NCBI RefSeq assembly: GCF_004010195.1
Contig: NC_057718.1
Location: forward strand, 78,604,935 to 78,668,934
Source: Chiloscyllium plagiosum
Taxonomy: Eukaryota
Reading direction: 5' to 3'
DNA: 64,000 nucleotides
Under the pieces are notes generated by a model. The model did not search any database, was not told the DNA's origin, and worked only from the letters and a program-made list of their open reading frames with translations. Made by a program: the position numbers and the translations under genes. This document shows positions 4,601 to 60,293 of this stretch, piece by piece. The stretch's first letter is position 1. Every line of letters begins with the position of its first letter.

Positions 4601-5214
4601 GGCCTACAGAAACAGAAACAAAAGTATTTTATAAAATATTGGCTACATTTCCCATCATGCTTCATGTCTACATTTGTCTGTACTGAGCTTTCAACATGCA
4701 TTTACATTTCAGTATTAATCAATTGTCTAACCACACTGTTTAATCAACATTCCAAACTGTTGTTTAGTTTTTTAATGTAAAAGTTTGTAATAGTTCATAT
4801 TAGTTCATGTGCTTTTAAAACCAGTTCAAAGACGACAAAGAACTGAAAGTTTTTCCATTAAATTTTAAATGAATATATAGTGAAGAAAGGCAGTTAGTCA
4901 CTGTTCAATTGCTTCTAATTACAAGGCCATGAATGGCACGTTCAGTACACAGTGGAGGGACCATTGTATCTGACTAACTACTCCTGTTCTGTCTGTGCAC
5001 AGGTGTCCATGGAGAGGGAACATGTGAGTCCATTGGCATATTAGAGGCCTTTAGGGCCGGGAAATTATGTTTTGATTTCAATTTTGTTACAATTTTCAAT
5101 TTCTGCTAACCTCTTGACCTTTTGTAACAGTACCCCATCAGGGACTATCTAAACCATTACTGCGAATTTTCTCTGATCCTGAATGCACATTTATAACGGT
5201 CAGGATTAGTGATG

Positions 5215-5602
5215 ATTCGGAGATGCCGGTGTTGGACTGGGGTGCACAAAGTTAAAAATCACACAACACCAGGTTATAGTCCAACAGGTTTAATTGGAAG
5301 CACTAGCTTTCGGAGCGCCGCTCCTTCATCAGGTGATTGTGGAGGGCTCGATCGTAACACAGAATTTATAGCAAAAATTTTACATTGCACTTTGCTCAAA
5401 AACCACATAGATTCATGTCGAACTCTGAGCTCAAAAACTGCATCAATTTATGTAAAACTCCGTTATCTCACTTTTTAGATTGGAATCAATCTAAACATCA
5501 GGTCATAGACAGAGAACACAGGGGGCTAACACCTTCAACATAAAAGCTAGTGTGCTTCCAATTAAACCTGTTGGACTATAACCTGGTGTTGTGTGATTTT
5601 TA
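5215..5602. mobile_element. Penelope-like (family B) insertion with inverted termini; 13 bp TSD
   Basis: aggattagtgatg at 5202-5214 and 5603-5615. The stretch about 5255-5300 is the reverse complement of about 5555-5600. Confidence 0.8.
5301..5335 (-). ncRNA. Minimal type I hammerhead ribozyme motif (family B), intact
   Basis: cac-CUGAUGA-a-GGAGC-ggc-GCUCC-GAAA-gcUA-gug. Helix I cac/gug, 5 bp helix II, palindromic AGCU in place of helix III. Confidence 0.75.
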
Positions 5603-6181
5603 AGGATTAGTGATGTAATTGTTGAATGAACAAATCCCAACATAGATCTTTTTTGAGATATTGACAAGTTAGATGTCATTTTTATGCTAGTCAGCAAAAG
5701 GTATTAAAGTCTATTTAAAAGCAACTCTGAAACTGCATAAATACAGGTCAATAAGAGGGAACAACATGCTCAAGATAAGAATCCATGATGACCATAGCGC
5801 ACTGCTGATGCAGAAAGTAAAATAAGCTGAGAAAGTTTCTCTGCTGGAAAAGTCAACATCCACAACCTTGCATATCTGGAATTCACTGAACAATTTATGG
5901 AAGATCATGTCTCGCAAAAATAGTTCTTGTCAGTGACTAGACAGCTCACTGCAAACTAAAAGGTGATTGATATTGGAGACAGCCAGAATATAAAGGAGAA
6001 AAGATTTCCTGCAAAATATGAAAACATAGAAGCTATAAGAAGGCTTTGTTTAATAGTTCAAGATATTTAAATTGTCATTAGTAGATATTTAATCTATCAA
6101 AGGAAAATTTTGGGATTTTTCTTTGGGTACAATAATTTTAGAGGTAATTTTGTCAAGTTTTGATTGACCATTCAAAATGGA

Positions 6182-6379
6182 GAAAGTGAGGACTACAGAT
6201 GCTGGAGATCAGAGCTGAAAATGTGTTGCTGGAAAAGCGCAGCAGGTCAGGCAGCATCCAGGGAACAGGAGAATCGACGTTTCGGGCATAAGCCCTTCTT
6301 CAGGCTTATGCCCGAAACGTCGATTCTCCTGTTCCCTGGATGCTGCCTGACCTGCTGCACTTTTCCAGCAACACATTTT
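6182..6379. mobile_element. Penelope-like family A fold-back insertion; 13 bp TSD
   Basis: cattcaaaatgga at 6169-6181 and 6380-6392. 78 bp inverted arms at 6217-6294 and 6303-6380. Confidence 0.85.
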
Positions 6380-6619
6380 CATTCAAAATGGACTCTGATT
6401 GTCAGCTAGCCCCAACCACTATTCATGAAAGACTAAACGTATTCACTGAACCTTGCTGGGTGAAATAAAAAACAGTCTTATTATTAGGGCCGTGCCTTTA
6501 TTCACCAATTCAGAAAAGCAAGGATTGAGAAAAAAAGAGAGCAAAATTTGTATATTTATATATGTTCCTATGATTATGAACAATAACTTAGTGAACAACC
6601 CTCCATTTTGTGTTGCGTT

Positions 6620-8015: not shown

Positions 8016-8154
8016 TTAAGTGACTATCATCTGATGAAGGAGCGACGCTCCGAAAGCGAGTGTGCTTCCAATTAAACCTGTTGGACTATAACCTGGTGTT
8101 GTGTGATTTTTAACTTTGTACACCCCAGTCCAACACCGGCATCTCCAAATCATG
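8016..8154 (+). mobile_element. Penelope-like family B terminus with mutated hammerhead, just downstream of the plg stop
   Basis: CTGATGA-a-GGAGC-gac-GCTCC-GAAA-gcGA at 8031-8059, with the cleavage triplet changed from CUA to CGA. Imperfect acaatttt.aaagt TSD. Confidence 0.75.
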
Positions 8155-8211
8155 ACAATTTTAAAAAGTCTTCTCAATGAAATGAAAACAATAATTGTGT
8201 CAGAGAAGGAA

Positions 8212-8956: not shown

Positions 8957-11346
8957 GGGCTGGTGAGTTTTCTCACTATATCTTACCACACTTGCCTTAT
9001 TAACTAACTGTCCCACCCTCTCTAGCAACCCCTTGTTTGATTCTAGCCCTACCTTACCAAGCATTGTTCCTTGAAGAATTTGCCACTGCCAGGATATTGT
9101 GGAATTGACTGACATCTCTGGTGCATCTTTAAAAGGCTGTAGTGCACCTAAACAGGTACTGTCAGTCAAAGCTGGCTTGCAATGTTCTTGACATAAATCC
9201 TGAACATGGCAGGCAAAGGAAATTTCACATACAGCTTTTTGGGCAGGGACCTGGAGGTTCTGTTGGATGAAGTGGTGCAAAGGTGGGACATTCTCTTCCC
9301 CCAGGACCAGCCGAGGAGCCATGATAACAACCAATGTGAGCTCTGGTCCAACTTTGCCACTCAGCTCAACGCAGTCTCAGCAATCTGAAGGAATGCACAG
9401 CAAGGTGAGAAGAAATGTAGTTACTTTCTCCACTCCTCCAGGAGAAGTACCTTCATTTTCTCTCTGACACCTTACACTGAATCTACCTTTCTACTCTACC
9501 CACCTCCCACCAAGCTCTTGTTCAACCACTCTCACAATTGTCTGCAATATCTTGCTTCACCAAACCTCAGCACCACTAACCCTACTTCTCACTGAGCTGC
9601 CTACTCACTTGCTTGGTACACCTCCTCACCTGCCGTAACAGTTGTAGCACATGCTTCTTTTTCATTTCAGGAGGAAAACAGCCCACATTTGGGCAAGAAG
9701 AGCCAAGGTAGGTAGTGGGCTGCCTGATATTTGGCTTCTCACAATGCGTGTGGAAAGCATCCTGACTCTGACCATACTGAATGGCTAATGGATCATGTCC
9801 AAGCCCCTGAACTGGTATTCGAGTCTGCCATTGACTTACTGAGCCTGAATTCCCTGAGAGCAGGCTACCACCCTTGACTTGATCGAGGACTACTGATAAC
9901 CATGTCAGGGTTTTCTGTCTTTATGTCTGTGTTCAGCTGCAAGGCAATACAGCAGTACTATGAGCCTACAATCTCTGGCTGAAGGGGTGAAGTGTACAAA
10001 GGCAAGGTAATATGAGACAGGAATGCTGTAATCACACAGATGATCATTCAGTGAAATGATAGCAAGTGAATAGCCTGCCATGCAGATTTGTCCAGTCCAT
10101 GAGATGGGTGAGTGTCCCTGAGCACTCATATCCATTGCAATTATACTTACTGATGCAGCTTTGAAGTACAGGCATGTACTGTAAGTGCATCAGAGATGGT
10201 CAATATGGACATCCTTTGGAGCATGTGGTAAGCTGAAGTCACCAGAAATCCATTCTGACTTACCTGTTGAGAGTTCTCAATGTCTATCTTGTTCGGTGTG
10301 TTTGGTAAGATAGGACGCTGAATGTTAATAAGGTGAACTGTGGTCTTAATAAAGTGTTCAACAATATAATAATCCTCCGTACTTAGCAACTGCCTAATGA
10401 AACAAATCACTATACTGCTCAGCAGATACACACAAGATGGAGTGAGTTTATGAGATAGACGTCACCAGACTTCTCATATAATTCTACCACAAATGTTTTC
10501 ATAGCCCAAGATGTTCATGCCCCGTAAGATTCTGCCTTGTTTTATAAACTGGAGTGTGCTAAGTAGCAACCACGCTAGCCCCACTGATAAGATATCTCTC
10601 CTGATCACCTGTCAATCAGTTCATGAAGAGCTGGAAGGAAGTCAGAATGACTATTGCAGGCCTTGTCACTGTGAAGCTGCCAGCCAATAACAGGTTGGCA
10701 GCTTCTGGGCCGTAAAGGGTGTTTGAGGCCTATTCCTTGGGTTCTATTGAGGTGAGAAGGTAAGTTTTCTTGTGGGAAGAGAAGGCTCAGTGGGGTTGGC
10801 GGGTAGGGCAAAGGATAACTTTCAGTGGATATCCTCACACCCCCACTACTTGTGCCTCAATTTGACGCCAGATTCAGGCAATTAGAGACCCCTCCTAAAC
10901 TGGCAGTTGGATCACCATGGTTTTCTGGTCAGGGAAATGAACCACCTTTCTCATCCATCTGGGAGGCCGATGAGAGAGACATATCAATTTGATGCCTTAA
11001 ATGACCACTTAAGGGCCTCAATGCCGGCGAGTCAAAGTCCTAGTTAGCTTTCTTATTCCAGCAGGTGGAAGTGAGGACTGCAGATGTTGGAGATTAGAGT
11101 CGAGAGTGTGGTGCTGGAAAAGCACAGCAGGTCAGGCAGCATCTGAGGAGCAAAAGCCCGAAATGTCGACTCTCCTGCTTCTCGGATGCTACCTGACCTG
11201 CTGTGCTTTTTCAGCACTACATTCTCATTTCTTATTCCAGCACTCAATTGCTGAGGGGCAAGAAGTAAATCAGGTCTAAATGGTCCCATTTATTCTCCTT
11301 TTTGACATCTCTCTTGCTACTTCTGAGGTAAGGGAAAATCATTGCC
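8957..11346 (+). mobile_element. Degenerate PIF/Harbinger-type element carrying a Myb/SANT-like gene remnant (9206-9440, second exon near 9671-9740)
   Basis: F..RDLEVLLDEVVQRWDILFP...W..FA..LNAVS...RNAQQ..KK resembles the Myb/SANT-like domain of Harbinger ORF2. Imperfect gggc...ttttc termini; ends uncertain. Confidence 0.55.
11064..11227. mobile_element. Penelope-like family A fold-back insertion; 15 bp TSD
   Basis: tttcttattccagca at 11049-11063 and 11228-11242. Inverted halves present; hammerhead partly deleted. Confidence 0.8.
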
Positions 11347-17731: not shown

Positions 17732-18117
17732 TTTTTGTTTTAATACTCTCCTTCACTGCCTTTTTTAACCAGATTAAAAATTACACAACACCAGGTTATT
17801 GTCCTGGTGCTGTGTGACTTTTAACTTTTTTCCACCCCAGTCCAACACCGGTTCCTCCACATCTTTGTTAACCAGGAGTGGTTCATCTTTCCCATCAAAT
17901 TCCTTTTTGATCATCATAGTTTTTTTTTTGTTTTAATACTCTCCTTCACTGCCTTTTTTAACCAGATCAAAAATTACACAACACCAGGTTATTGTCCTGG
18001 TGCTGTGTGACTTTTAACTTTTTTCCACCCCAATCCAACACCGGTTCCTCCACATCTTTGTTAACCAGGAGTGGTTCATCTTTCCCATCAAATTCCTTTT
18101 TGATCATCATAGTTTTT
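17732..18117. repeat. Tandem duplication with a 193 bp period inside an old CR1 fragment
   Basis: gttttaatactctcc at 17737 and 17930. The two copies are nearly identical. Confidence 0.9.
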
Positions 18118-19384
18118 TGCTGAGTGTAATAGATTATCTGTTTAAGTATCTGCCACTGCTCTTCCACTGACTTCATTCTACCTGCTATAACAATCTTTTA
18201 TTCATGCCTCTGTAATTGGTCTTATTTAAGTTGAGGACATTAATGTGAGAACCATTTTGCTCTCCCTCGAGCTGAATTTGAAATTCTACCATGTTGTGAT
18301 AGTTAAGGACCCTTTAGGAGATAACAATGAGATGTCTTGATAAATGTACCTCATTACACATTACCAAATCTAAAGTAAGTCTGTTTCTGGGTAGGTTCTG
18401 CAAACTACTACTCTGAGAAACAATCTCTGATGCACTCTACAAGTTGTACTCTGTGTTACCCTTTCCCATTTAATTTGTCCAGCTAATATACAAATTAAAA
18501 TCGACCATGACAATTGGAGTGCTTTTCTTACATGTCTCCATTGTTTCCTGATTTACACTTTGTATAGATTTTTACATGTTAATACTTGTTGCAGTATCTG
18601 CAGCTCAGACAGAAGTCATTGATGTACTGTCTAACAATCAGTTGGGCTTTACTTGGGACAAAATATACGGAAAGCTTGGGTTGCACAAATGTCAGGGTTC
18701 ACTTCTTGACTTACTTATTTGAGTCCAAAGATATGAAAAGTGTGATGATTGACACCAGCTTGGTTGCAGGAACAATGGCATACTTCGATATTACTCTGCC
18801 TTTGGACTCCACCACAGAAATGTTTTTGACTAAGGTTTACTCCCAAGATATCCACAAGACTGTGGAGGAATTTAGCTCTTGCTCGGAGTTTCATTCATGA
18901 CTGCTGGATCTGTCAATGCAGCAGTGGATGTACATATTACCTGTCTGAGAGCCAGCCTTCCTCTGAGTATTTTGAAAATTTAGCCTAGGATACAAAATAT
19001 CCAGTTTCCATGTATTCGGCATGAGAATATACAACAGAGAATGTGCTGCAGGAGGGGATCTATACATTTGCCTCCTTTTCACATGGCTGATAGACAACAG
19101 TGCTAGCTGAAAATTAGAGGCAAGCTAACCCTTAAGAAGTGGGAAATATACTAACTCTCTTTGTTCTCATTCTAGATGCATCCCATCATCCTGTTTGACA
19201 CTTAGGCTCATACAAGCTAACCATGTTATCAGCATCCGTGGAACAATAAACAACTGCAAAATCAATGCCTACAGGAAAAGATGGATGAGTCTGGAGACAA
19301 ATTAGCGGAGAAGAGAGGAGAGGGAAAACCAAATAATTAAGGACGTCTAACTTTACTTTGAGAAACGATTGCTTTAATGTGTAC

Positions 19385-19491: not shown

Positions 19492-20697
19492 CTAAAATGA
19501 AAAATGTGTTTCAAATAATTTTGTTTTAACTTAATTTGCATAAAATAGTTTTTTTAATGATACATTTTTAATTCAGCTTGCAACCTAAGGATAATTCATC
19601 AATAGGCAACGCTATATTGAATAGCTTTATTCAGTTAACATTGTCATGTATGTTTTTAAAGGTACTAGATTAGCTGCAGCGGAGAGGACCTTAAAAAAAG
19701 TTTCAAATACAGCCCTATTATGCATTATGTTGAGTGCTTTATAAGTATTACGCTAAGGGATGGAGAAAGTCAGTCTTATGAAAGAGAGACTGGACCTGTG
19801 AGATGGATGACAATAATTGACTTTTCAAGATGAGCTTTGTTTCAGTCACAAGTTCCAGACAGCTGTGCCAAAATTTCTCCATTTTGTTTGTTATGTAGCT
19901 GTTCTGTGAAGAAATTGGTTCAGATTTTGTATCCTTAGCAGAGCTGTAGGAAGGGTTTGTGTGCATAACACCTCTAAGGGGTGCTCTGGTGCTAGCTAAT
20001 TGAAAAGGTGATGAGCTCTGCTCCCTTGTTGATATCCATCAGAATTATATGCTTCATAACATAATGGCTGTCCAGACACCAGTATCAGTATGCCACTCAA
20101 CAATAATTGCAGTGGATATTGTGCTTGATTTAAAGCTTTCATACCAAAAGGGAAAGATAATGAAAATAGAATGTTTAACAGGCATTCTGTTACCATCCTG
20201 CCACCACTTCCCACTGCAATTTTATCAGCAGCAGGAGAGGCACCAGCTGGCTACTTAAGGGACCAGTGCCAAGTGAAACCTGGTGGTTTAGTGGGAAGGA
20301 GGGGAGATGCCCCATTGGGACTTCTGTCTTCATTGTGGTTCCTTTATACACCCCTGATCCCATCCACTTTTGTGGCCCCAGCAAGATTCTGGAATCATCT
20401 CAGTTTGGATTACATCACTGAACACTCTTTTTTTGGTGACTGCTGTATCGTCCCAGCTGGTGGTTTTCTGAGATGGGCAAAAAACCTATTCAAACCAATC
20501 AAAGGCCCAATGATAATTACTTTGCTACTCAACTAGCTGTCCAAGTGAAGGCATATTTATTCATTTGTGGGATGTTGGCTTCACTGGCTGGCCAGCATTT
20601 ATTGCCTATCCCGTGTTACCCTTGTGAAAGTAGTGGTGAGCTGTCTTCTTGGACTGCTACAGTCCATCTGTTGTGGGTTGATTCACAATGTTATTAG

Positions 20698-20858
20698 TCG
20701 AGAGTGTGCTGCTGGGAAAGCACAGTGGAAGGGCATGACGAAGGCCATTTGCCCGAAACATAGATACTCCTGCTCCTCGGATGCTGCCTGACCTGCTGTG
20801 CTTTCCCAGCAACACACTCTCAACTCTGATCTTCATCATCTGGTGTCCTCACTTCCTC
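20698..20858. mobile_element. Penelope-like family A fold-back insertion into an older LINE 3' end; 14 bp TSD
   Basis: cacaatgttattag at 20684-20697 and 20859-20872. Confidence 0.8.
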
Positions 20859-21250
20859 CACAATGTTATTAGGAAGGGAATTCCAGGATTACGACTCAGC
20901 AACAGTGGAGCAATGGTAATATATTTCCAAGTCAAGATGGTGAGTGGCTTGCAGGGGAACTTGCAGGTGTTGGTGCTTATTCCCTCCACTGGTGTAAAAT
21001 TCAAATCTAGATTTCTTGATGTTCCATTTTGCTCATGTTGAGTGGTTGAGAGGGTCAATTCAGGGCAAATTAAGATGGCTTCAATTCCATGTACCATACT
21101 TTAGAAGCAAGGGTGTTAATCTTACAAGATTGCAAAGACTCTTAATGCATTGAGGGGACATTCTTCAAAACAACTGCATGAACACAAATGCAAGAGGAAT
21201 TGACTCATTACAAGTAAAGGCAAATATAAAAAAGAATTGAAAATGAATAC

Positions 21251-49163: not shown

Positions 49164-50189
49164 GTTCAAGAATTCTTCAAGAATTAGGTAGTGTACCATA
49201 TCTAAATTGCTGACTCTCAATTAGGAAAGTATGATGATACACCCCCTAATTCAAATGTCAAATCAAGGTCTAATTAGGTCAGATTGATTGCCAGATTCTA
49301 TCTTACATGAGAATAAGGGTAAGTACTTTCCACAGAGGTCACAGGTTTGGTTAAAAGTGCCTGTTCAGAACTTTGCTACAAAGGTTTTTTTTTTCTTTTC
49401 CTCTAATGGTATGATATCATGAGTGCAATTATACATACACAGATTGATAGTGGCCAGATTTTATGACAGCATCCTAACTCTTGCATTGGGAACACACACA
49501 CACACAGTAACATTTATTCCTATATCAATATTATTAAAGTGGATGTTTAGGTCAATATTGTTGTATAATTGCTTTAACAGTCGTGTTACTTTAAGAACTG
49601 GAAATGCAGAGAGGCCAAGAACCAGAATGAAACTGCATACATAGTTACGTGCTACTAAAAGTTGCAGTCTAAGTTGTCAAAGAAATCTGTGTTACTTATG
49701 AATAAACAAGAATATACAAAATTACCAACAGTGCTGGGAATCTTTCTTCCAAAAAAAACAAGTGGTGTCATCTTGAAACTGGCTTGAACCTTGCCAATTC
49801 ACCCCTGATACCATGTGACTTCACCTTTTGTACCAGTCTGCCATGAAGGACCTTCACTGCCTGAATGAGCGATGTAAACTGATTCAATGATAACTTGCAA
49901 AAGGGAAATGGAAATGTACATGAACAGAAAGAAAATTAAAGGGCTGTGGGGAAAGACTAGGAAAGTGGAATCAGTTGAATAATTTTTTCAGAGATTACTC
50001 AAGTACAATTGACTGAATGATCTTCTTTTATGTTGAATGATGATATGATTCTATATTTGACAGATGAAAACATTCTTTGTGACACCAGGAGCTTATCTAA
50101 ACAATTGGTGTATGGTATTTGGAGCACAAACTAACATGCTAATGTCACACAGTTACTAAAGCAATCCAAAAGACAAAGCAAATTTGCCA

Positions 50190-51152
50190 CAAGGAACTGT
50201 TTTGGGAGCACTGCTGTTTGTCATTTTTATAAATGATTTAGGCGCAGGCATAGGTGGATAGATTAGTAAATTTGCAGACGACACTAAAGTCAGTGGAGTA
50301 GTGGACAGTTTGGAAGAATGTTACAGGTTGCAGGGGGACTTGGATAAACTGCAGAATTAGGCTGAGAGGTGGCAAATGGAGTTCAATGCTGCTAAATGTG
50401 AGATGATGCACTTTGGGAGGAATAACAGGAAGGCAGAGTACTGGGTCAATGGAAAGATTCTTGGTAGTGTGGATGTGCAGAGGGATCTTGGAGTCCATGT
50501 GCATAGATCCCTGAAAGTTGCCACCCAGGTGGATAGTGATGTTAAGAAGGCATACAGTGTGTCAGGTTTCATTGGTAGAGGGATTGAGTTCTGGAACCGC
50601 AATATCATGCTGTAACTATACAAAATGCTGGTGCGGCCACACTTGGAATATTGTGTACAGTTCTGGTCGCCCCATTACAGAAAGGATGTGGAAGCATTGC
50701 AAAATGTGCAGAGGAGATTTACCAGGATGCTGCCTGGTCTAGAGGGAAGGCTGAGGGACTTGGTCTGTTCTCATTGGAGAGACGGCATCTAAGGGGGGAT
50801 TTGATAGAGACATACAAGATGATCAGAGGATTAGATAGGGTAGACAGTGAAAGACTTTTTCCTAGGATGATGACGTGAGCTTGTACGAGAGCACACAACT
50901 ACAAATTGAGGGGTGATAGATTTAAGATAGATGTCAGAGGCAGGTTCTTTACGCAGAGAGTGGTAAGGGCGTGGAATGCCCTACCTGCTAATGTAGTCAA
51001 CTCAGCCACATTAGGGAGATTTACACAATCCTTAGATAAGCACATGGATGATTTTGGGATAGTATAGGGGGATGAGCTGAGAATAGTTCACAGGTTGGCG
51101 CAACATCGAGGGCCGAAGGGCCTGTTCTGTGCTGTATTGTTCTATGTTCTAT
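50190..51152 (+). mobile_element. Relatively young 5'-truncated CR1
   Basis: KFADDTK, WQMEFN..KC.MMHFG and [13 protein letters not shown] motifs. ttctatgttctat tail. Confidence 0.9.
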
Positions 51153-51499
51153 CTTCTAAATTGAAGAGAAGAAATAGACAACAGTGAAAAGATTGTGTCA
51201 TGACCATACGGGAGTTAGGGTGAGATAGCTGTATATGAAGTTAAACACAGAAAGAGATACATTTACAGAAGCAGAATTAAGTCTACGTTTTATCATTAAT
51301 CATGTCCTGGGAGATCAATTGCATATTGTAATGCTCTTGTATAAGAAAGCTGCAACTCAGCTGATACATCAACAAGCAATATAATTGCAGATCAGCTAGT
51401 GACAATCATACAAATGACAGAACAACAAACAGTTTAGTGGAGATGATATTTATCAATAAAAAGAAACAAACCACCATCTCGGAATGGTACAATTCTTAC

Positions 51500-51621
51500 C
51501 TGCAGGTTGAAGGCCACACTTTCGTACTTGACAGTATTCCCATCTTGTTTCTGGGTCAGTGGTGTAACACCAGGGCTCCTTTTCATTATCTGGATTTCTG
51601 CAATAATTACGTTCTAGTCCT
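51500..51621 (-). CDS. plg: Plasminogen exon 9-equivalent, second half of kringle 3 ([40 protein letters not shown])
   Basis: Kringle signature. tttttcag acceptor, gtaaga donor, 122 nt, phase 2 to 1. Confidence 0.96.
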
Positions 51622-51877
51622 CTGAAAAACAGTAGTTTTGTTATCAATCAGAAAGAAATATTATACTGTTTTGAGTGTGTGACAAACTTCATCTCATGTA
51701 CAGAATATATGAAAGTCTGGAGTGTCAAATCCTGATTGGAATTGGCAAAGTTGCACAGATTGAGAACAAATCATCAATCAATCTCAGATGGTCCATACAA
51801 ATGAATTAAAACTTAATCCCACATCAGGGAGTAGGGCAGAAAACACTTTAAGCCAAGGGCTACTGACATTTACTTAC

Positions 51878-52040
51878 TTGCAGGGGTAGTTCTCTGGAGT
51901 TCTTGAATGCACGTGTGGTGTCTGAGTATCCCATCTTTGACAGATTCTACCAGAAACAGTTGTCCTTTCAGTCCCACGATACTTCTGACCCTTGCCTGTG
52001 TAACAGACTGTCTCTTCTTCAACAGCAGGAGGCTCTTCAT
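51878..52040 (-). CDS. plg: Plasminogen exon 8-equivalent, K2-K3 linker and first half of kringle 3 (EEPPAVEEETVCYTGKGQKYRGTERTTVSGRICQRWDTQTPHVHSRTPENYPC)
   Basis: Not in the ORF track frame; hand translated. ttttgaag acceptor, gtaagt donor, 163 nt. Ends in PENYPC-K, the plasminogen K3 inter-kringle Cys. Confidence 0.95.
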
Positions 52041-53375
52041 CTTCAAAAGGCATAAAACAATTATCTTAATATTGAGGGCATGTACAGTTATGTTAATGTG
52101 CATGTAAGATGGTAGGATAACATGGGTAAACGAGTTTCTAGCTTTCTGAAAAAGGACATGGAGCATGAGAAGGGAAAGGTGGCTGGCTGAAGTGGGAATG
52201 AGTGAGCAGTACTGAGGCATTCTGGGTTATAAATTCCAATATCAATTCCACAATGAGCCTCACCCACACCCCTGAGCACAGAAAAATAGATTACCCAATC
52301 AGATGCCTGACTGTGGCCAATCCCCTAAACTAATATGGGAGGCAGCTCTTGACATACTGTGCCAGGACACCTTAACAGATACGTGCCTCCATGGACTTCA
52401 GTGAAATACGTGCCCCTAAGACTTTGACACAAGGCTACTCGCTCTCTGCATGTCTTGTGCATTTGCCATGTAAGCTGCTGGCACATAGTGCAAGTGTAAG
52501 ACTGGTGCAGCACACTGGATACACCAAGACGTACACCTCCTTGACTAATGACTACTGAACTTAGAGCACTCTGTCAGCGTATTGGAAAGCTGTCATGATG
52601 GTCATGAGGAGTTGGCGAATGACAGATGCCCATGCCCACAGCTGAAGAGTGCACGTGGCTGGTGCCTATGGGTCATGTCCTGTGATGCTGTTTTGTTATA
52701 CACAGCATGGAAATCCATCAGAGCAAGTGGCAAGCTGAATCTGCCAGGTCCCTGCTCTTTGGTTTCAAATTTTCTTGACTATAACTTGTTTACTGTGTTT
52801 AGTAACATGTACAGCTGAGATGAGTTGGAACGTCAACAAAGTCTTTATCAAGCCACTTAATTGGGAACGTATTGAGTCATATAGAATGGAAACAGACCTT
52901 TGGTCCAACCAATCCATGCTGACCATAATCCCAAAATAAACGAGTCTCACCTGCCTGTGCTTAGCCTCCAAACATTTCCTCATTGTGTACTTATCGACAA
53001 ATCTTTTAAACATTGTAATTCATCCACTACTGCCTCAGGAGGTTCATTACACACATAAACCACTCTCTGTGGAAAAAATGTTGCCCCTCACGTCTTTTAA
53101 AATCTTTCTTCTCTCACCTTAAAAATATGCCGCCGTAGTCTTGAAATCCCCTAACCTAGAGAAAGGACACCTGCCATTCACCATATCTATACCCTCATGA
53201 TTTTATAAACCCCTATAAGGTTACCCCTCAACCTCCTAGAGGTGAGGGCAGAACTGCCCAAAAAAAAATCCAGCTTAAAAATAACACATGACAGACTTGC
53301 TGCTGCCTAGCAAGAAACTTGTCACATCACTTATCAAAACCTTAAAAGTTGGAGTGAGAGTCTTCTGATGTTGAG

Positions 53376-53718
53376 CTGAAAATGTGTTGCTGGAAAAGCG
53401 CAGCCTGTCAGGCAGCATCCAAGGAGCAGGAGAATCGACATTTCGGGCATGAACCCTTCTTCAGGAATGAGGAAGGTGTGCCAAGCAGGCTAAGATAAAA
53501 GGTAGGGAGGAGGGACTTGGGGGAGGGGCATTGGAAATGCGATAGGTAAGAGCTTCTGGTCAGAGGAGATGACCTGGGGTGTGCAGTGAGAGAGGGACTC
53601 ACTGAAATCCTTGTAGAGGGAGGAAGAGAGCTTCTTCAAGGAAGGCATCCTTGTAAGAGGATTCGCAGTAGGTTAAAATCTTCTAGGAGAAAGTGAGGAC
53701 TCCAGATGTTGGAGATCC
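53376..53718 (-). mobile_element. Internally deleted, circularly permuted Penelope-like family A unit; 15 bp TSD
   Basis: tcttctgatgttgag at 53361-53375 and 53719-53733. Hammerhead at 53433-53468. ORF start MPSLKKLSSSLYKDFSESLSHCTPQ from 53648. Confidence 0.8.
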
Positions 53719-55149
53719 TCTTCTGATGTTGAGATGGGGTTTGCCAAACTTCTCATCTGATTCTCCCAAGAGGGGAGGACAAAGAACAGCATGGCTATAA
53801 ATGGCAGAGGAATCAATTAGAAGGGTAACAGATAGGCACTTCTGCAAACGCAAAGGACACCCCAGGGTGGTATGTTGCTCCCTGGTGCCACGGTCAGGGA
53901 TGAATGTTGGCCCTTTGCTGTTTGTGATATTTAGAAACAATCTAGACTTGAATGTAGGAGGATTGATCAATAAATTCAAGGTGAGGTGGTAATTACAGCC
54001 CTAGATTACAGAATGATATAAATGGTCTGGTCTGAAGAGCTGCTCAGTGACGAATGGAATTTGATCCTGAAAGGTGTGAGGTAATGCAGTTTGAGAGGAT
54101 GTACAAGGCAAGGGACTGCATATTGAATGATGGAATCCTAGGAAGCACCAAGGATTGAAGGACTTCGGTGTGAGTTCTTCATATCCGAGAATGTTGAGCC
54201 TGAAGTCTTAACTGCTACAGAAGGTGCTTGAGGCCAAAACATTATGTGTTTTTAAGAAGGCAATGTATATAGTCTTGTGGCTAAAGGAATCAATGGATAT
54301 TGGGATGGCACTGAGCTTGATGATTAGCCATGATCATAATGAATGGAAAGCAGGCTTGAGGGGATGAATAGTCTATTCATGCTCCAATCTTTTATGTTTC
54401 TATATTTCTATTCATGTCCACAGGTCCTTTAAGGTAGTGGGACAGGTAGATAAAACGATTAAGAAAACATTTCCAATATTTCCTTTTATTAGCCGAGACA
54501 CAGTGTTTAAGAGTAGCGAGGTGATGTTAGAACTACATAAAGTGTTGGTTAGACCAAAGCTAGGGTATTGTGTGAAAATCTGGAATCTACATAATCGGAG
54601 AAGTGTGACTGCATTGGAGATACTGCAGAGAATCCCACACAGGCTGTTAGTGGAACAAACCAGCTGAGGCCACAGGAAACTAAAGTCACACAGATCAGGA
54701 AGAAAAGACACATCCTTCAGCAGAGATGTTAGAAAGTTTAAAATAGAATTTTAAAGGGATAGGTCACAATATATGATGTGTCATTTGGAGTATTTATGAG
54801 CCATGTGGCATCTTTGCATGTTCTTTGTTTCATTTCTAGAAGAGAGCAGTAAATAAAATCAAGTCCTGGTCAAGGACAACGGATATATAAGATAATGAAT
54901 AAGCACACAGACAGATAATCATGCATAAATAGTTTCTATGGAAACAACAAGTTTAAAAATGGAAATTTAAATTTAATGAAAACCTGATAGTCCAACAACA
55001 TTTATTTTATAGAGTCATAGAGATGTACAGTATGGAAACAGACCCTTCAGTCCAACCTATCCATGCTGACCAGATATCTTAATTTGGAATTGTTTGAGAT
55101 GTGCAATGTCTATAGAAATTTCACAAGTTACTTTATGCTGAGTGTAAAT

Positions 55150-56340
55150 AAATGTGCAAGAAATGTTAATGCCTGAAATCGAATAGAAATGTTTGATTTC
55201 TGCTTTAAGGGTACTGCAAGAATACTTGTTTGGAAAGTAAAGGTTCCCCATAAGTTTCGAAATGAGATAGAACAGTAATAGTGTAGTGCCCCAGTTAGAA
55301 GAGAAGTTAGAAATAATTTTTAAGAAGTTATTTTGAGAGCCTGAGATAATTTATCACAGCTTAATTTGATTGAATATGTCAGTTTTGTATTTATGTAGAT
55401 TATAGTGAAAGGAAAGTGCAGATGAGACCAGTATGTTTAGGATAAAGTTTGGCTTGCTGTAATTAAAAGTTTGAGAATGATAATCGGAATAGAAAGGAAT
55501 ATCTAGCTTGAATACAGTTTAAAAAAAAGAGAACTGCATGATCTTTTAAGTCCATTTTATTTGGTAGTAAAGCATTTATACTAAATGCTAGTAACAATTT
55601 TGCAAGAGAATGTGATTCAGTGAAGCAACCTGTAGATGGGCAATACCATAAAGTTAACCAGTGACCATCCACTCTTCAGGAGTGTGAAATGAAGAAATAG
55701 AAACTTGAAAACAAATTAAAATGTTTATTGCAGATACCACACTCAATATACGACCGCACTTAGTAGGCTAACACTTATAATATACGTCCTTAGACAAGTA
55801 CATGATTATATGGTAGCATGGAGTCCACAGTGGATGTATCATCTTAGGGAGGGGGACATGTACAGCAATTAAGAAATGAGCAGAAGCTGCTAGATTATAA
55901 TTATAGGCAGTGGCCATAAAGGTAAAAATGCTCCAGAAGGGAACAGATCTCATTCAAGTAGATAACCATGAACAGATGGGGTAGGTAAGAGGCAGTACAG
56001 GACATCAGCATTGTCAATTGTGCTAGAGGAGCTGAATATGGTAGATTTACACAGATATACTGAAGAGGAGGAAGAATTGCTTTGAGAAGAACAATGTGTA
56101 CTAAAAGGCACCAGCGGTGTCTAGCAGAAAGAGAAAAGGGTGATATCACCACACTCATTCAGCATAACTTCATGAAAATATACCATGGAAATTCACACCA
56201 GGGGAGGGAAGCCATGTTGGTAAGTTGTTAAGGATAAGCAGATGCTGTGGTGACAAGGAATGGGAAGAGACATAATAAAACATTGTTAGAGCTGTTGCTA
56301 TGTGTCCAGCCTAATCCAGGAAGACGAGTCAAAGTCCACA
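55150..56340 (+). mobile_element. Highly decayed endogenous-retrovirus-like pol (RNase H and integrase zinc finger)
   Basis: Remnants YVLRQVHDYMVAW, AVAIKVK..QKGTD and MKIYHGNSHQGREAM, followed by a degenerate C..C..NPG segment. Confidence 0.5.
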
Positions 56341-57209
56341 TCTTGTATCATAGATTCATAAAGCATGGAAACAGATCATTCCATTGAACTCATCTGCACT
56401 GACCAGATATCCCAATCTGACCTAGTCCCACTTGTCAGCATTTAAACCATAACCCTCAAAACTCTTCCTATTCATGTACTCATCCAGTTGCCTTTTCAAT
56501 ATTCCCTTTACCACATCCTGTGGCTTACATGTGCCATCCTCTGCATGAAAAAGTTACTCCTCAGGTCCTTTTTAATTGTTGCCCCCCTTTCCTTAAACCT
56601 ATGCCCTCTAGTTTTGGACTTCCCCCCTAGGAAAAAGATCTTAGTTATTCATCCGATCTGTGCCCCTCATGATAATATAAACTTTGATATGGCTACTTCT
56701 CAGCCTCTGATACTCCCGGGAACAAAAGCCCCTGCCTATTTAGCGTCCCTAGATAATTCAAATCCTCCAGTCCTGGCAACATCCTTGTGAATCTTTTCTG
56801 CACCCCTTTAAATTTAACCACATCCTTCCTAAAGAAGGGCAATCACTAAATGACATTAGAAAGCAATATCAATTCTGTCTGGTCCTTTGGGAAAAAATTC
56901 AATCATGTTTGTCCAATATGAGTTTCGCTACATAAAATCATACAGACTGGTAATCATATATTTTCAAAATGGCAGTTAATTTTATTTCAGATTAGTGTCT
57001 CCACAATATTCCCAATCATTGTCAGTTGACAGGCTGGTCTGTATTTGCATGGTGCTTCTTCTCTTTGGAGAGGATGTGAGGGAAATTAGCTTTGTGTTGA
57101 AACTGCCAACTACTTCTTAACTGTAAGTAGGGAAGGTGTGAGGATCAGAATACCTGATAAGAACAAAGAGCAAAGCAGGTGCCGATTGCAAGAGCAGATG
57201 CTTGTAGGC

Positions 57210-59095
57210 AGTTTCTCCTACAAGGATCCTTTGAGCCATGGATAGAGGTAAAGGGGGAGGTGTGGGTGCTGGTTTTACACCTCATCTGGTGGCGAGGGAT
57301 GATGCAGGGAGTGGAGGGTGGGTTGATGGGGGAGTATGGACATAACAGGGGAGTCACGGAGGGAATGGTCTCTGCTGAATGCTGATAGGGGTGAGGAGGG
57401 AAATATATTTCTGGTGGTGGGGTCTGACGGTAGGTAGTGGAAATTCCAGAGGATGGTGCATTGTATCCGGAGATTGGTGCACTGGAAGGTGAGAACCGGG
57501 GGACTCTATCCGTGTTGCAGTTGGAGGGGTGGAGTTCAAGGGCGGAGGTGCAGGAAGTGGAGGAGATGCACTGGAGGGCATCTTTGACCTTGTGGGAGGG
57601 GAAAGAAGTAGGAGGCCATCTGGGATGTTCAGGTACTGCTCCTGGGAGACAGAGGATTTGGGAGTATGAGGTCATGTTTTTACAATGACGAGGATGTGGG
57701 GGTTGGTGTAGTCCAGGTAGCTGTGGGAGCGGGTGGGTTTAAGGTAGATGTCCGTGTTGAGTCGGTTGCCTGAAATAGAGACGGAGAGGTCCAGGTAGAG
57801 GAGGGAGGTGTCCGAGATGGTCCAGGTGAATTTGAGATCAGGGTGGAAGGTGTTTGTGAATTCAATAAATTGTCCAACCTCCTTGTGGAATCATTGATGT
57901 AATGGAGGAAAAGGTTGGGAATGGTGCCAATGTAACTACGGAAGTTGAACTGTTCCACGTATCCAATAAAAACACAGGCATAGCTGGGACCCATGCGTGT
58001 GCGCATGGCTGCCACTTTGGTCTGAAAGAAGTGGCAGGTTTTGAAGAAGCAGTTGTTCAGAGTGAGGAGCAGTCCAGGCGATTGGATGAGCGTGTCAGTG
58101 GAGGGGTATTGGTTGGGTCGATCAGGGTGGAAGGTGTTTGTGAAGTCGATGAATTGTCCAACCTCCTTGTGGAGGCATGAGGTGGCGCCGATACAATCAT
58201 TGACGTAATGGAGGAAAAGGTTGGGAATGGTGCCAATGTAACTACGGAAGTTGAACTGTTCCACGTATCCAACAAAAACACAGGCATAGCTGGGACCCAT
58301 GCGTGTGCGCATGGCTGTCACTTTGGTCTGAAAGAAGTGGCAGGTTTTGAAGAAGAAGTTGTTCAGAGTGAGGAGCAGTCCAGGCGATTGGATGAGCGTG
58401 TCAGTGGAGGGGTATTGGTTGGGTCGGTGAGTGAGGAAGAAACAGAGGATCAGGAGGCCTTCGCCATGGTGGATGGACATGTACAGCGATTAGATGCCAT
58501 GGTGAAGATGAAGTGTTGGGTGCTGGGGAAATGAAATTCATGGAGGAGGTGGAGGGTATGGGCGGTATTCTGAATATATGTTTCAGAGAAAATCTCTGGG
58601 ACACATCACCAAACAATCCCACTGCCCTGTGACCGACTACTTCAACTCCCCCTCCCACACTGCCAAGGACATGCAAGTCCTGGGCCTCCTCCACTGCCAA
58701 ACTCGAGCCACCCGACGCCTGGAGGAAAAATGCCTCAGCTTCCACCTTCTAACCACATGGCATCAACGTTGATTTCACCAGTTTCCTCATCTCCCCTCCC
58801 CCCATCTCATCTCAGATCCAACCCTTCAACTCAGCGCCACCCTCTTGAGCAGTCCCACCTGTCCATCTTCCTTCCCATCTATCTGCTGCAACTTGTCACC
58901 ATCACCCCCCACCTTTATCTGCCTATGGCATTCCAAGCAATCTCTCCCCCAGCCCCACCCCCTCTCCTATTTATCTCTCAGCTCATCCACTCCTAAACAT
59001 TCCCGATGAAGGGCTTATGCCCGAACCATCGACTCTGCTGCTCCTGGGTTACTGCCTCTCCTGCTGTGCTTTTCCAAAGTCACACTTTCCATCTT
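57210..59095. mobile_element. Penelope-like family A element: RT on the minus strand (57210-58575), then an inverted plus-strand endonuclease end and terminus (58580-59095)
   Basis: LTLNNF.F...F.Q...AM.TRMGPSYAC.F.GYVE...FL.Y..DC (Penelope RT core). Decayed hammerhead at about 59004-59031. Confidence 0.85.
57837..58426. repeat. Tandem duplication (306 bp unit; left copy carries a 22 bp deletion) of the Penelope RT core
   Basis: atcagggtggaaggtgtttgtgaa at 57837 and 58121. ORFs 57902 and 58208 translate almost identically. Confidence 0.9.
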
Positions 59096-60293
59096 TGATT
59101 GGAAAGTGACACACAGCACAGGGAAACAATTTTAAAAATTGGCCACAAATCAGGATTTTCTGCTTGTCTCCACAGGACCAAGTCATAGGTCTCTAAATTT
59201 GTTTCCTTTGAACCAGAAAGATTGAAACACGCTAAGCTATGTGTTCTCACCAACAACCACTGGTCCCAGCTGATGTATTAAGTGAAGGCTTGGGTGCAGT
59301 CAGCAACTGCAAAAAATCACACAGAAATAAAATTTCTCAGTGAACATCTTCCTAGCAAGAGGATCAAGGTTTCTGGTAGAGTAAAGGAGACGAGAGTGTT
59401 GGTGGTAGTGAGCTCCAGCATCAGTTTTGGCTCAAGGATAATGTTCTCACCTCTGAGTCAGGTGTTTGAAAGAATACCTCCAAATCTAGGCTGACATAAA
59501 ATACAGTAATGAGGGAGTGCTGCATTTGAGATGGTTCCTTTATTTCAAAGTGACATTAAATTACACCAGAGTTGTGTTCTGGTGGATCCTTCAGTCAACA
59601 CCAGTGAAACAGTTTAATTATTCATGCACCTTATTTGTAGATCTGGATGGGTACATGAATAGGAAGGGCTTAGACGGATATGGTTCAAATGTTGACGAAT
59701 GGAATATCTGGTTGATGCAGATGAGTTTGATCAAAGGACCTGTTTCCATGCTTTATGAATCTATGACTTTTATTTTGATTTGGTCCTGGGATTTGGGCAT
59801 GGCTAGCTAGGTATTTTTAATTAACGTGGTCAGCAATATTGTTACACACCTCTGGAGTAAGGTGAGACTTGAACCTGGGTTTCCTGGCCCAAAGGTAGGG
59901 ACACTGTCACTGTGCCACAAGGACAGAGAGGTCAGTGATTGATCATTACTGGACCACAATATTGGAGCAAACAGGAGATAAGAATTGAAACCTTTTAACG
60001 AGATGACGTACTTGTCATTTTTCCTACAGTGCTTCTGACTAGAGCTATCTTGGACTTTTAAAAATATTACTATAGACTCCTTTATGGAAATCTGACAGGG
60101 CTGACGTCTAATATCTCATCTGATAGTATCTCCAATAGCATTTCCTCCAAGGTGTGAATGTAACATATTTTAGGTTACCAGAAAGTGATTTCCACACATT
60201 GGATTGATTCAGTCAAGCACCGGTTCCTAAAAGTGAAATAGCATTGTTTGAACAGACACTAAAGGACATGTGTGATGACATGGAGAAACTTAC

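What the first reader, a model, noticed from the sequence alone, without database searches (positions are those of the whole stretch)
53361..53733. Circularly permuted ~343 bp ribozyme-bearing unit (retrozyme-like)
Seen: other family A copies read ...ttttcagctctgatctccagcatctgcagtcctcactttctcc as one run on the element strand. Here the insert, between perfect 15 bp TSDs, starts at gatctcc...ctttctcctag. It continues into an ORF start (MPSLKKL...), jumps across a large deletion to the 3' UTR and hammerhead, and stops at ...ttttcag(ctc), within about 1 nt of where it began. Inference: one almost exact unit length opened at an internal point fits reverse transcription of a circular or tandem RNA, as proposed for non-LTR retrozymes. 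The alternative is ordinary Penelope pseudo-LTR formation plus a deletion.
Basis: partly seen in the sequence, partly recalled or inferred. Interest (0 to 1): 0.7.

Follow-up and report, generated by a model that had tools for sequence, protein, structure and literature searches.

The report
Permuted Penelope-element fragment in shark intron
This 343-base insert is a real, oddly reordered scrap of a common shark jumping gene that starts and ends at the same point of its parent; it could be the imprint of a circular RNA, but it more likely arose once, during a single faulty insertion at a site that resembles the element's own end.

Summary
A 343-bp insert (53376-53718, minus strand) lies between exact 15-bp TSDs in an intron of a plasminogen-like gene. 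It reads: tail, 33 codons of a Penelope-like (PLE) ORF start, a blunt junction (53548/53547), 3' UTR, minimal hammerhead. It closes on a 346-nt family unit to within one base. The retrozyme reading is weakened three ways. (1) The opening point is not random: it is the family's usual tail-less 3' end, seen at 6 of 12 other ends in the window. (2) The junction shows no sign of being common: 0 of 24 listed contig pieces cross it (a weak test), roughly 2-9 of about 60 RNA reads could, and 12 other junctions of the same build appear. (3) New: the inferred pre-insertion site resembles the tail (20-21 of 26 columns; at most 0.4% of background tiles; 0 of 5 other sites), which could itself fix the 5' end. 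Best reading: a one-off chimeric PLE insertion made by target-primed reverse transcription with a template jump. A circular template stays open (about 0.3). Junction copy number was not measured directly: no shark genome was available.

The parts
53719..53733 (-). Upstream target-site duplication (15 bp)
   Evidence: Exact copy of 53361-53375; junction present with 0 differences in contig 8 of run X1, depth 4.8 (X1 may be the source sample)
53718..53718 (-). One non-family base at the 5' junction (non-templated addition or later substitution)
   Evidence: Family has A at this place on the + strand in X1 and X21 (table 5c); window has C
53685..53717 (-). PLE 'tail' (about 33 nt), normally the 3'-most part of tail-bearing copies, here at the 5' end
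   Evidence: 87-94% matches to the 3' ends of six window copies
53649..53684 (-). Leader between tail and ATG
   Evidence: Sequence; covered by family contigs in 4 of 4 runs
53548..53648 (-). First 101 nt (33 codons + 2 nt) of the PLE ORF
   Evidence: P0002 97% identical over 33 aa; relatives P0003, P0004; N-terminal domain linked to RT-like motifs through P0006
53547..53548 (-). Blunt ORF-start to 3' UTR junction (J1)
   Evidence: Loose ends at 53547 in 132, 139 and 23 contigs of X1, X13, X16; 5' pieces start at 53548. Not a canonical splice: next ORF base is the third base of a Phe codon in P0002 and the 3' side is preceded by CC
53470..53547 (-). Pyrimidine-rich 3' UTR of the element
   Evidence: Family contigs cover it; similar by eye to the stretch between the endonuclease remnant and hammerhead at 37.1 kb and 58.9 kb
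53433..53469 (-). Minimal type I hammerhead motif (core 53464-53441; predicted cut 53437/53436; helix III palindrome altered by a C-to-T change at 53440)
   Evidence: Pattern match; stem II 90.7% paired over 12 window ends, no covariation above shuffles; no Rfam hit at gathering score; cut site placed from recalled hammerhead numbering
53376..53432 (-). Segment from hammerhead to the tail-less 3' end (site A)
   Evidence: 76-92% identity to 11 other window segments; five of them stop at the equivalent of 53377-53383 without a tail
53361..53375 (-). Downstream target-site duplication; its first 3 nt (53375-53373) also match the element (priming microhomology)
53350..53375 (-). Tail-like host sequence at the target (TSD plus about 11 nt of flank; match starts 2 nt before the TSD, at 53735)
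   Evidence: Inferred pre-insertion site aligns to window tails at 20-21 of 26 columns; 0-36 of 9,404 tiles and 0-146 of 40,988 tiles score as high

Best explanation
A dead, probably one-off chimeric insertion made by the machinery of an abundant shark Penelope-like element. Steps: (1) the GIY-YIG endonuclease made a 15-nt staggered cut in a host intron at a site that resembles the element's tail (TSD shown; tail likeness shown; that the likeness guided the cut is inferred). (2) Reverse transcription was primed on the nicked strand with 3 nt of microhomology at the family's tail-less internal start site (junction shown; mechanism inferred from PMC11167929). (3) After 172 nt (hammerhead, 3' UTR) the enzyme jumped, without microhomology, to ORF nucleotide 101 of the same or another element RNA (inferred). 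(4) It copied ORF start and tail, and stopped at the tail's first bases because the new cDNA could pair there with the tail-like target overhang, or by chance; one extra base was added and the ends were joined (inferred). No circle and no pre-existing 346-nt family are needed.
For: 3' end equals the tail-less end class: 6 of 12 other window ends. TSD length is the family norm, 6 of 9 tested. Twelve other tail/ORF-start-to-hammerhead joints among the 15 joints shown of 215, each in 1-5 contigs per run, 9 of 12 landing at 53466-53472, the same place where four window copies are 5'-truncated: such chimeras arise repeatedly. J1 is not prominent: loose ends at 53547 continue into undeleted UTR in 132/139/23 contigs; 0 of 24 listed pieces cross it; in raw RNA run X21 depth is about 60 at 53540 and about 2-9 (3.4 if flat at 60) just across. 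Pre-insertion site is tail-like and the match starts where the insert starts; 0 of 5 other TSD sites are. Single copy in the window, no tandem.
Against: Capture by homology should usually merge target and tail into one copy; here TSD and tail are both kept whole with one extra base, which looks more like run-off from a template end or block. Exact closure is predicted to the base by same-molecule models and has about 1% chance otherwise. J1 lands 80 nt upstream of the truncation hot spot, unlike most other joints. 10 of the 12 joints are marked 'between: not known' with only 20-28 letters on the short side. The contig table shows 24 of about 104,300 pieces, longest first, so a roughly 60-nt junction contig could be hidden. 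Some other joints have depth 170-270 against 5-27 in the flanks of X1, so mini-units can be multi-copy.
Confidence: 0.45

Rival explanations
1. Same-molecule closure with a one-off jump: the template was a full-length circular PLE RNA (hammerhead-cut and ligated) or a linear tandem RNA. The enzyme started at site A, jumped to the protein-bound ORF start on the same molecule, and stopped on meeting its own primer duplex at site A.
For: Closure within 1 nt on a 346-nt unit. PAc needs RNA downstream of its start sites and is proposed to use multi-copy mRNA (PMC11167929); circular PLE templates were proposed in PMC4209133. One joint in X1 (53436 to 53683, one contig, depth 171) begins exactly at the predicted hammerhead cut. 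One extra base and no 5' microhomology fit a hard stop.
Against: Does not explain the tail-like target (at most 0.4% of tiles). The published circle models predict more-than-unit cDNAs. Hammerhead cleavage was not needed for PAc insertion in vitro and no reads ended at the cut site. No look-alike among earlier scan notes.
Confidence: 0.2
2. One reading: a source locus with J1 between two hammerheads gives a 346-nt monomer, ligated to a circle and copied once round by the PLE enzyme; a newborn non-autonomous, retrozyme-like unit.
For: Size within the 150-450 nt range and long TSD described for non-LTR retrozymes; a preprint gives a mean consensus of 363 bp for its one chondrichthyan and derives retrozymes from pLTRs. 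The unit keeps hammerhead, both start sites and downstream ORF start. Joint 53466 to 53569 occurs in two organisms (depth 193 and 21).
Against: No second copy or tandem seen; hammerhead is the minimal PLE type with a damaged helix III palindrome; circular fold only z = -1.9, 50% paired; GC 0.504; tail-like target unexplained.
Confidence: 0.17
3. A long or full-length copy (tail start to site A) inserted first; the ORF interior was removed later by a blunt DNA deletion.
For: J1 is blunt and off the truncation hot spot; internally deleted PLE copies are described (PMC3846280).
Against: Most window copies are about 75-130 nt stubs, so full-length copying is rare; the deletions described there are microhomology-mediated; the exact 5' end still needs one of the other causes.
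Confidence: 0.15

Closest known systems
Endonuclease-bearing Penelope-like element insertions with pLTR, partial tandems and 30-40 bp tail (PMC3846280 passages; PMC8557442 passages; PMC11167929 first two of four parts)
   Same: Two 3' end classes about 33 nt apart, inverted tail-less partners, TSDs, 5' truncation, minimal hammerhead upstream of the tail, ORF start downstream of the tail.
   Different: Here the tail sits at the 5' end in direct orientation, followed by ORF start and then the 3' UTR, closing on site A with no terminal redundancy; target resembles the tail, whereas PAc primes at non-homologous sites.
Minimal hammerheads of metazoan PLEs (Cervera and De la Pena 2014, PMC4209133, first two of four parts read)
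   Same: Core boxes, bulged base before stem II, no helix III, solo motif in a truncated copy.
   Different: Palindrome at 15.2-16.2 is altered in this copy; stem II is 4 bp; activity untested.
Non-LTR retrozymes (PMC7229834 part 2 and passages; PMC7761336 passages; bioRxiv 10.64898/2026.07.22.740005 first three of five parts, supplements not seen)
   Same: Few hundred nt, type I hammerhead, long TSD, likely moved by PLE enzymes, derived from PLE ends.
   Different: No tandem array, one minimal rather than canonical hammerhead, keeps 33 PLE codons, no evidence of copy family or circular RNA.

Membership tests
Non-LTR retrozyme | Tandem repeat with a hammerhead in at least two consecutive units | tested here: not met
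   No tandem repeat in 50000-58600; one family motif at this locus; ORF-start piece occurs once in the window. A tandem source elsewhere could not be searched.
Non-LTR retrozyme | Canonical type I hammerhead with helix III (Cervera 2020 usage; the 2026 preprint also admits minimal ones) | tested here: not met
   Minimal motif, no helix III; no Rfam gathering hit
Non-LTR retrozyme | Unit of about 150-450 nt, TSD longer than 4 bp | tested here: met
   346-nt unit, 15-bp TSD
Non-LTR retrozyme | No protein-coding region; GC under 50% | tested here: not met
   33 codons of PLE ORF kept; GC 0.504, borderline
Non-LTR retrozyme | Multi-copy family sharing the unit | tested here: inconclusive
   0 of 24 listed pieces cross J1, of about 104,300; about 2-9 of 60 RNA reads could; scans of collections that lack the family say nothing
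Non-LTR retrozyme | Expressed as self-cleaved monomer and circular RNA; highly self-paired circle | not testable with these tools
   Only a poly(A) single-cell raw run was laid; predicted circular fold is modest, z = -1.9
Penelope-like element (EN+), fragment | Minimal hammerhead in the pLTR | tested here: met
Penelope-like element (EN+), fragment | 30-40 bp optional tail; inverted tail-less partner copies | tested here: met
   Six tail-bearing and six tail-less other ends; inverted pairs at 6.2, 11.1 and 20.7 kb
Penelope-like element (EN+), fragment | Parent ORF with RT and C-terminal GIY-YIG endonuclease | tested here: inconclusive
   ORF start links to P0002, P0002 to P0006 (59% over 70 aa), P0006 to the window RT remnant (46%); endonuclease remnants precede the hammerhead at 43 and 59 kb. 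RT and GIY-YIG motifs were recognised from memory; Pfam gave no RT or GIY-YIG hit; no intact ORF was retrieved
Neptune clade | CX2-5CxxC motif in the RT-EN linker (PMC8557442) | tested here: inconclusive
   A decayed look-alike in the 57 kb remnant lacks the last Cys, and that remnant is not shown to be this subfamily

The most novel reading that the evidence does not exclude
The insert is a genomic cast of a circular Penelope-like RNA (a 346-nt mini-circle or a full-length circle with one jump) copied exactly once round from the tail-less start site, with the tail pairing to a tail-like target; it would be direct genomic evidence for the circular-template model of PLE transposition and a snapshot of a retrozyme being born from a PLE, with a predicted rule that such copies open only at the two tail-flanking start sites.
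Probability: 0.3. Interest if true: 0.65.

Novelty: new variant of a known kind. Interest (0 to 1): 0.4.

Why it matters
How PLEs form their pseudo-LTRs and what their hammerheads do is still open. TSD-bounded inserts that begin at the tail and end at the tail-less start site are a countable genomic signature: if they are common and independent of target sequence, the template is circular or tandem and the enzyme halts at its own primer; if they occur mainly at tail-like targets, RNA or cDNA pairing with the target shapes PLE junctions. A shark genome with a very large number of copies could decide this by computation alone. As a single locus it is a curiosity with no sign of host function.

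Tried and rejected
No whole genome is held, so the decisive junction search could not be run. Pattern scans for J1, ORF start and tail found 0 matches in metagenome, viral and prokaryote collections; the family itself is absent there, so these say nothing. No RNA holder was listed on record. Rfam: 0 hits at gathering score. Pfam: no RT or endonuclease hit on five window frames or five homologues. ESM Atlas: best score 0.78, uninformative. Longer-protein search gave no full-length ORF. Co-folding two motif copies did not give the dimeric hammerhead for any of three copies, intact ones included: uninformative. Covariation of stems I and II did not exceed shuffles. Splicing as the origin of J1 rejected (no GT, no AG). 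A conserved splice acceptor after the tail rejected as a claim: 53684 varies in over half of X1 depth. The 'goes back 345' joint is not evidence of a circle, since every tail-bearing copy produces it. Depth arithmetic on contigs could not bound J1. An empty-site allele was not seen in the joints shown. Earlier scan notes gave no look-alike. Seven literature searches listed no paper describing this exact insert architecture; most subscription papers are not covered, and the preprint's supplementary retrozyme consensus tables could not be seen and may include this unit.

Full report
Observation. The window is animal DNA; the insert lies on the minus strand in an intron of a plasminogen-like gene, between kringle exons near 60.4 kb and 52.0 kb and in the gene's sense (gene named from recalled kringle and protease motifs, Kringle Pfam hit). 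Exact 15-bp repeats at 53361-53375 and 53719-53733 bound 343 bp. TSDs of 13-15 bp mark 6 of 9 family insertions tested, against 1 of 3000 random placements. The right junction is present without differences in a low-depth contig of run X1 (that run may be the source sample). A contig of organism B (X13, record 16) runs from the right flank through the TSD and ends 5 letters inside the insert, if its coordinates are read as for the other minus-strand records; this suggests, on 5 letters only, that the insertion is shared.

Anatomy. On the element strand the insert reads tail (53717-53685), leader, 101 nt of ORF (53648-53548), a junction, 3' UTR (53547-53470), minimal hammerhead (53469-53433) and the segment to 53376. 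The peptide is 97% identical to the start of P0002 from Hemiscyllium ocellatum, which points to a carpet shark host (inference). That N-terminal domain is linked through P0006 to RT-like sequence, and endonuclease-like remnants precede the same hammerhead at 43 and 59 kb; these motifs were recognised from memory, Pfam did not call them. Reads show the family running straight from the 53373 side into the tail with one base between, in 4 of 4 runs, so the unit is 346 nt and the insert closes on it with 3 nt shared with the TSD and one non-family base.

The opening point is not arbitrary. The 12 other family ends in the window fall in two classes: six with the tail and six without (the 20.7 kb inverted end judged by eye, and two old copies end less sharply). 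The insert's 3' end is the tail-less class. This is the known PLE tail: in Anolis PAc the tail lies between two internal reverse-transcription start sites, and RNA downstream of them is required (PMC11167929, first two of four parts read); the tail is described for other PLEs in passages of PMC3846280 and PMC8557442.

The junction. Loose ends at 53547 continue into undeleted 3' UTR in 132, 139 and 23 contigs of X1, X13 and X16, and 5' pieces begin at 53548. It is blunt and is not a splice: the next ORF base is the third base of a Phe codon and the 3' side is preceded by CC. None of the 24 listed pieces crosses it, but about 104,300 were not shown and a junction contig would be short, so this is weak. 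In the raw poly(A) run X21 depth is about 60 at 53540 and leaves about 2-9 for the 12 bases beyond, close to the 3.3 of the next bin. Of the 15 joints shown (200 more hidden), 12 join tail or ORF start to the hammerhead region at other positions; 9 land at 53466-53472, where four window copies are also truncated; 4 leave from the tail end and 8 from further in; implied units are 100-247 nt. Ten are marked 'between: not known' and rest on 20-28 letters. Read together, chimeras of this build arise repeatedly, and some may be multi-copy (depth 170-270 against 5-27 in the flanks; the tool warns that depth is no copy number).

A second coincidence. The inferred pre-insertion site aligns to window tails at 20-21 of 26 columns, in the sense orientation, starting 2 nt before the TSD. 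Depending on the tail used, 0-36 of 9,404 background tiles and 0-146 of 40,988 score as high; five other TSD sites score 10-14 against a background mean of 12.6. Two rare features at one site suggest one cause: a tail-like target may attract the endonuclease (Frangieh et al. report earlier work in which the tail was required for recognition) and its overhang can pair with the tail part of the cDNA exactly where copying stopped. Against this, homology-based joining should merge the two copies, whereas both are kept with one extra base, which resembles run-off followed by an end-to-end jump as in R2-type enzymes (recalled; seen as a listing only).

Mechanism. Most likely (0.45): target-primed reverse transcription from the tail-less site, one template jump to the ORF start, and a stop at the tail start set by the target or by chance. 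Rivals: a jump on one circular or tandem RNA with a stop at the enzyme's own primer (0.2); a pre-existing 346-nt hammerhead-cut circle (0.17); a long copy deleted later (0.15). The insert is equally a permutation of a contiguous UTR-hammerhead-tail-ORF-start stretch, with halves of 172 and 171 nt, so 'deletion' cannot be told from a backward jump. These odds are judgement, not computation.

Comparison. It works like an ordinary PLE insertion with an unusual order. It is not a member of the non-LTR retrozymes as defined: no tandem, one minimal hammerhead, ORF remnant, modest circular fold (definitions from PMC7229834 part 2 and passages, PMC7761336 passages, and the first three parts of bioRxiv 10.64898/2026.07.22.740005). 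That preprint reports retrozymes in one chondrichthyan with mean consensus 363 bp and derives them from pLTRs; its supplements were not seen. Circular PLE templates were proposed in PMC4209133. Seven searches listed no description of this exact architecture.

Verdict. Real feature, new variant of a known kind, interest 0.4. The copy number of the junction and the genome-wide distribution of 5' ends remain unmeasured and would settle the matter.

Noticed in passing
joint 53436 to 53683 (run X1) and 53434 to 53670 (run X16): One joint starts exactly at the predicted hammerhead cut site and another 2 nt inside it; possible trace of in vivo cleavage in some copies. One contig each.
   Followed up: partly
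joint 53466 to 53569: A 244-nt mini-unit junction with 4 nt of microhomology, present in organisms A and B (depth 193 and 21); a better candidate for an amplified mini-PLE than this insert.
   Followed up: no
window 900, 6304, 40586, 49164: Four family copies are 5'-truncated at the front edge of the hammerhead (equivalent to 53465-53469).
   Followed up: partly
window 6179-6381, 11063-11228, 20696-20860: Inverted PLE insertions with a tail-bearing main copy and a tail-less inverted partner, each with a 13-15 bp TSD.
   Followed up: partly
window 57145-59099: Large decayed PLE remnant in inverted arrangement with RT on the minus strand, an internal duplication of about 300 bp (57836-58439) and endonuclease end plus hammerhead on the plus strand.
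   Followed up: partly
window 5204-5340, 8023-8156: A second hammerhead-bearing repeat family with a different stem II (motifs at 5308-5332 and 8031-8055).
   Followed up: no
window 17732-18118: Near-perfect tandem duplication of about 193 bp that includes part of that second family.
   Followed up: no
window 8458-63943, minus strand: Exons of a plasminogen-like gene (several kringles and a serine protease domain); two HFCGG-type exons at 21.9 and 18.8 kb suggest a duplicated or decayed exon.
   Followed up: no
P0002, P0005: Database names 'mucin-2-like' and 'prostatic acid phosphatase-like' cover proteins that contain this PLE N-terminal domain; probable mis-annotation or chimeric gene models.
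   Followed up: no
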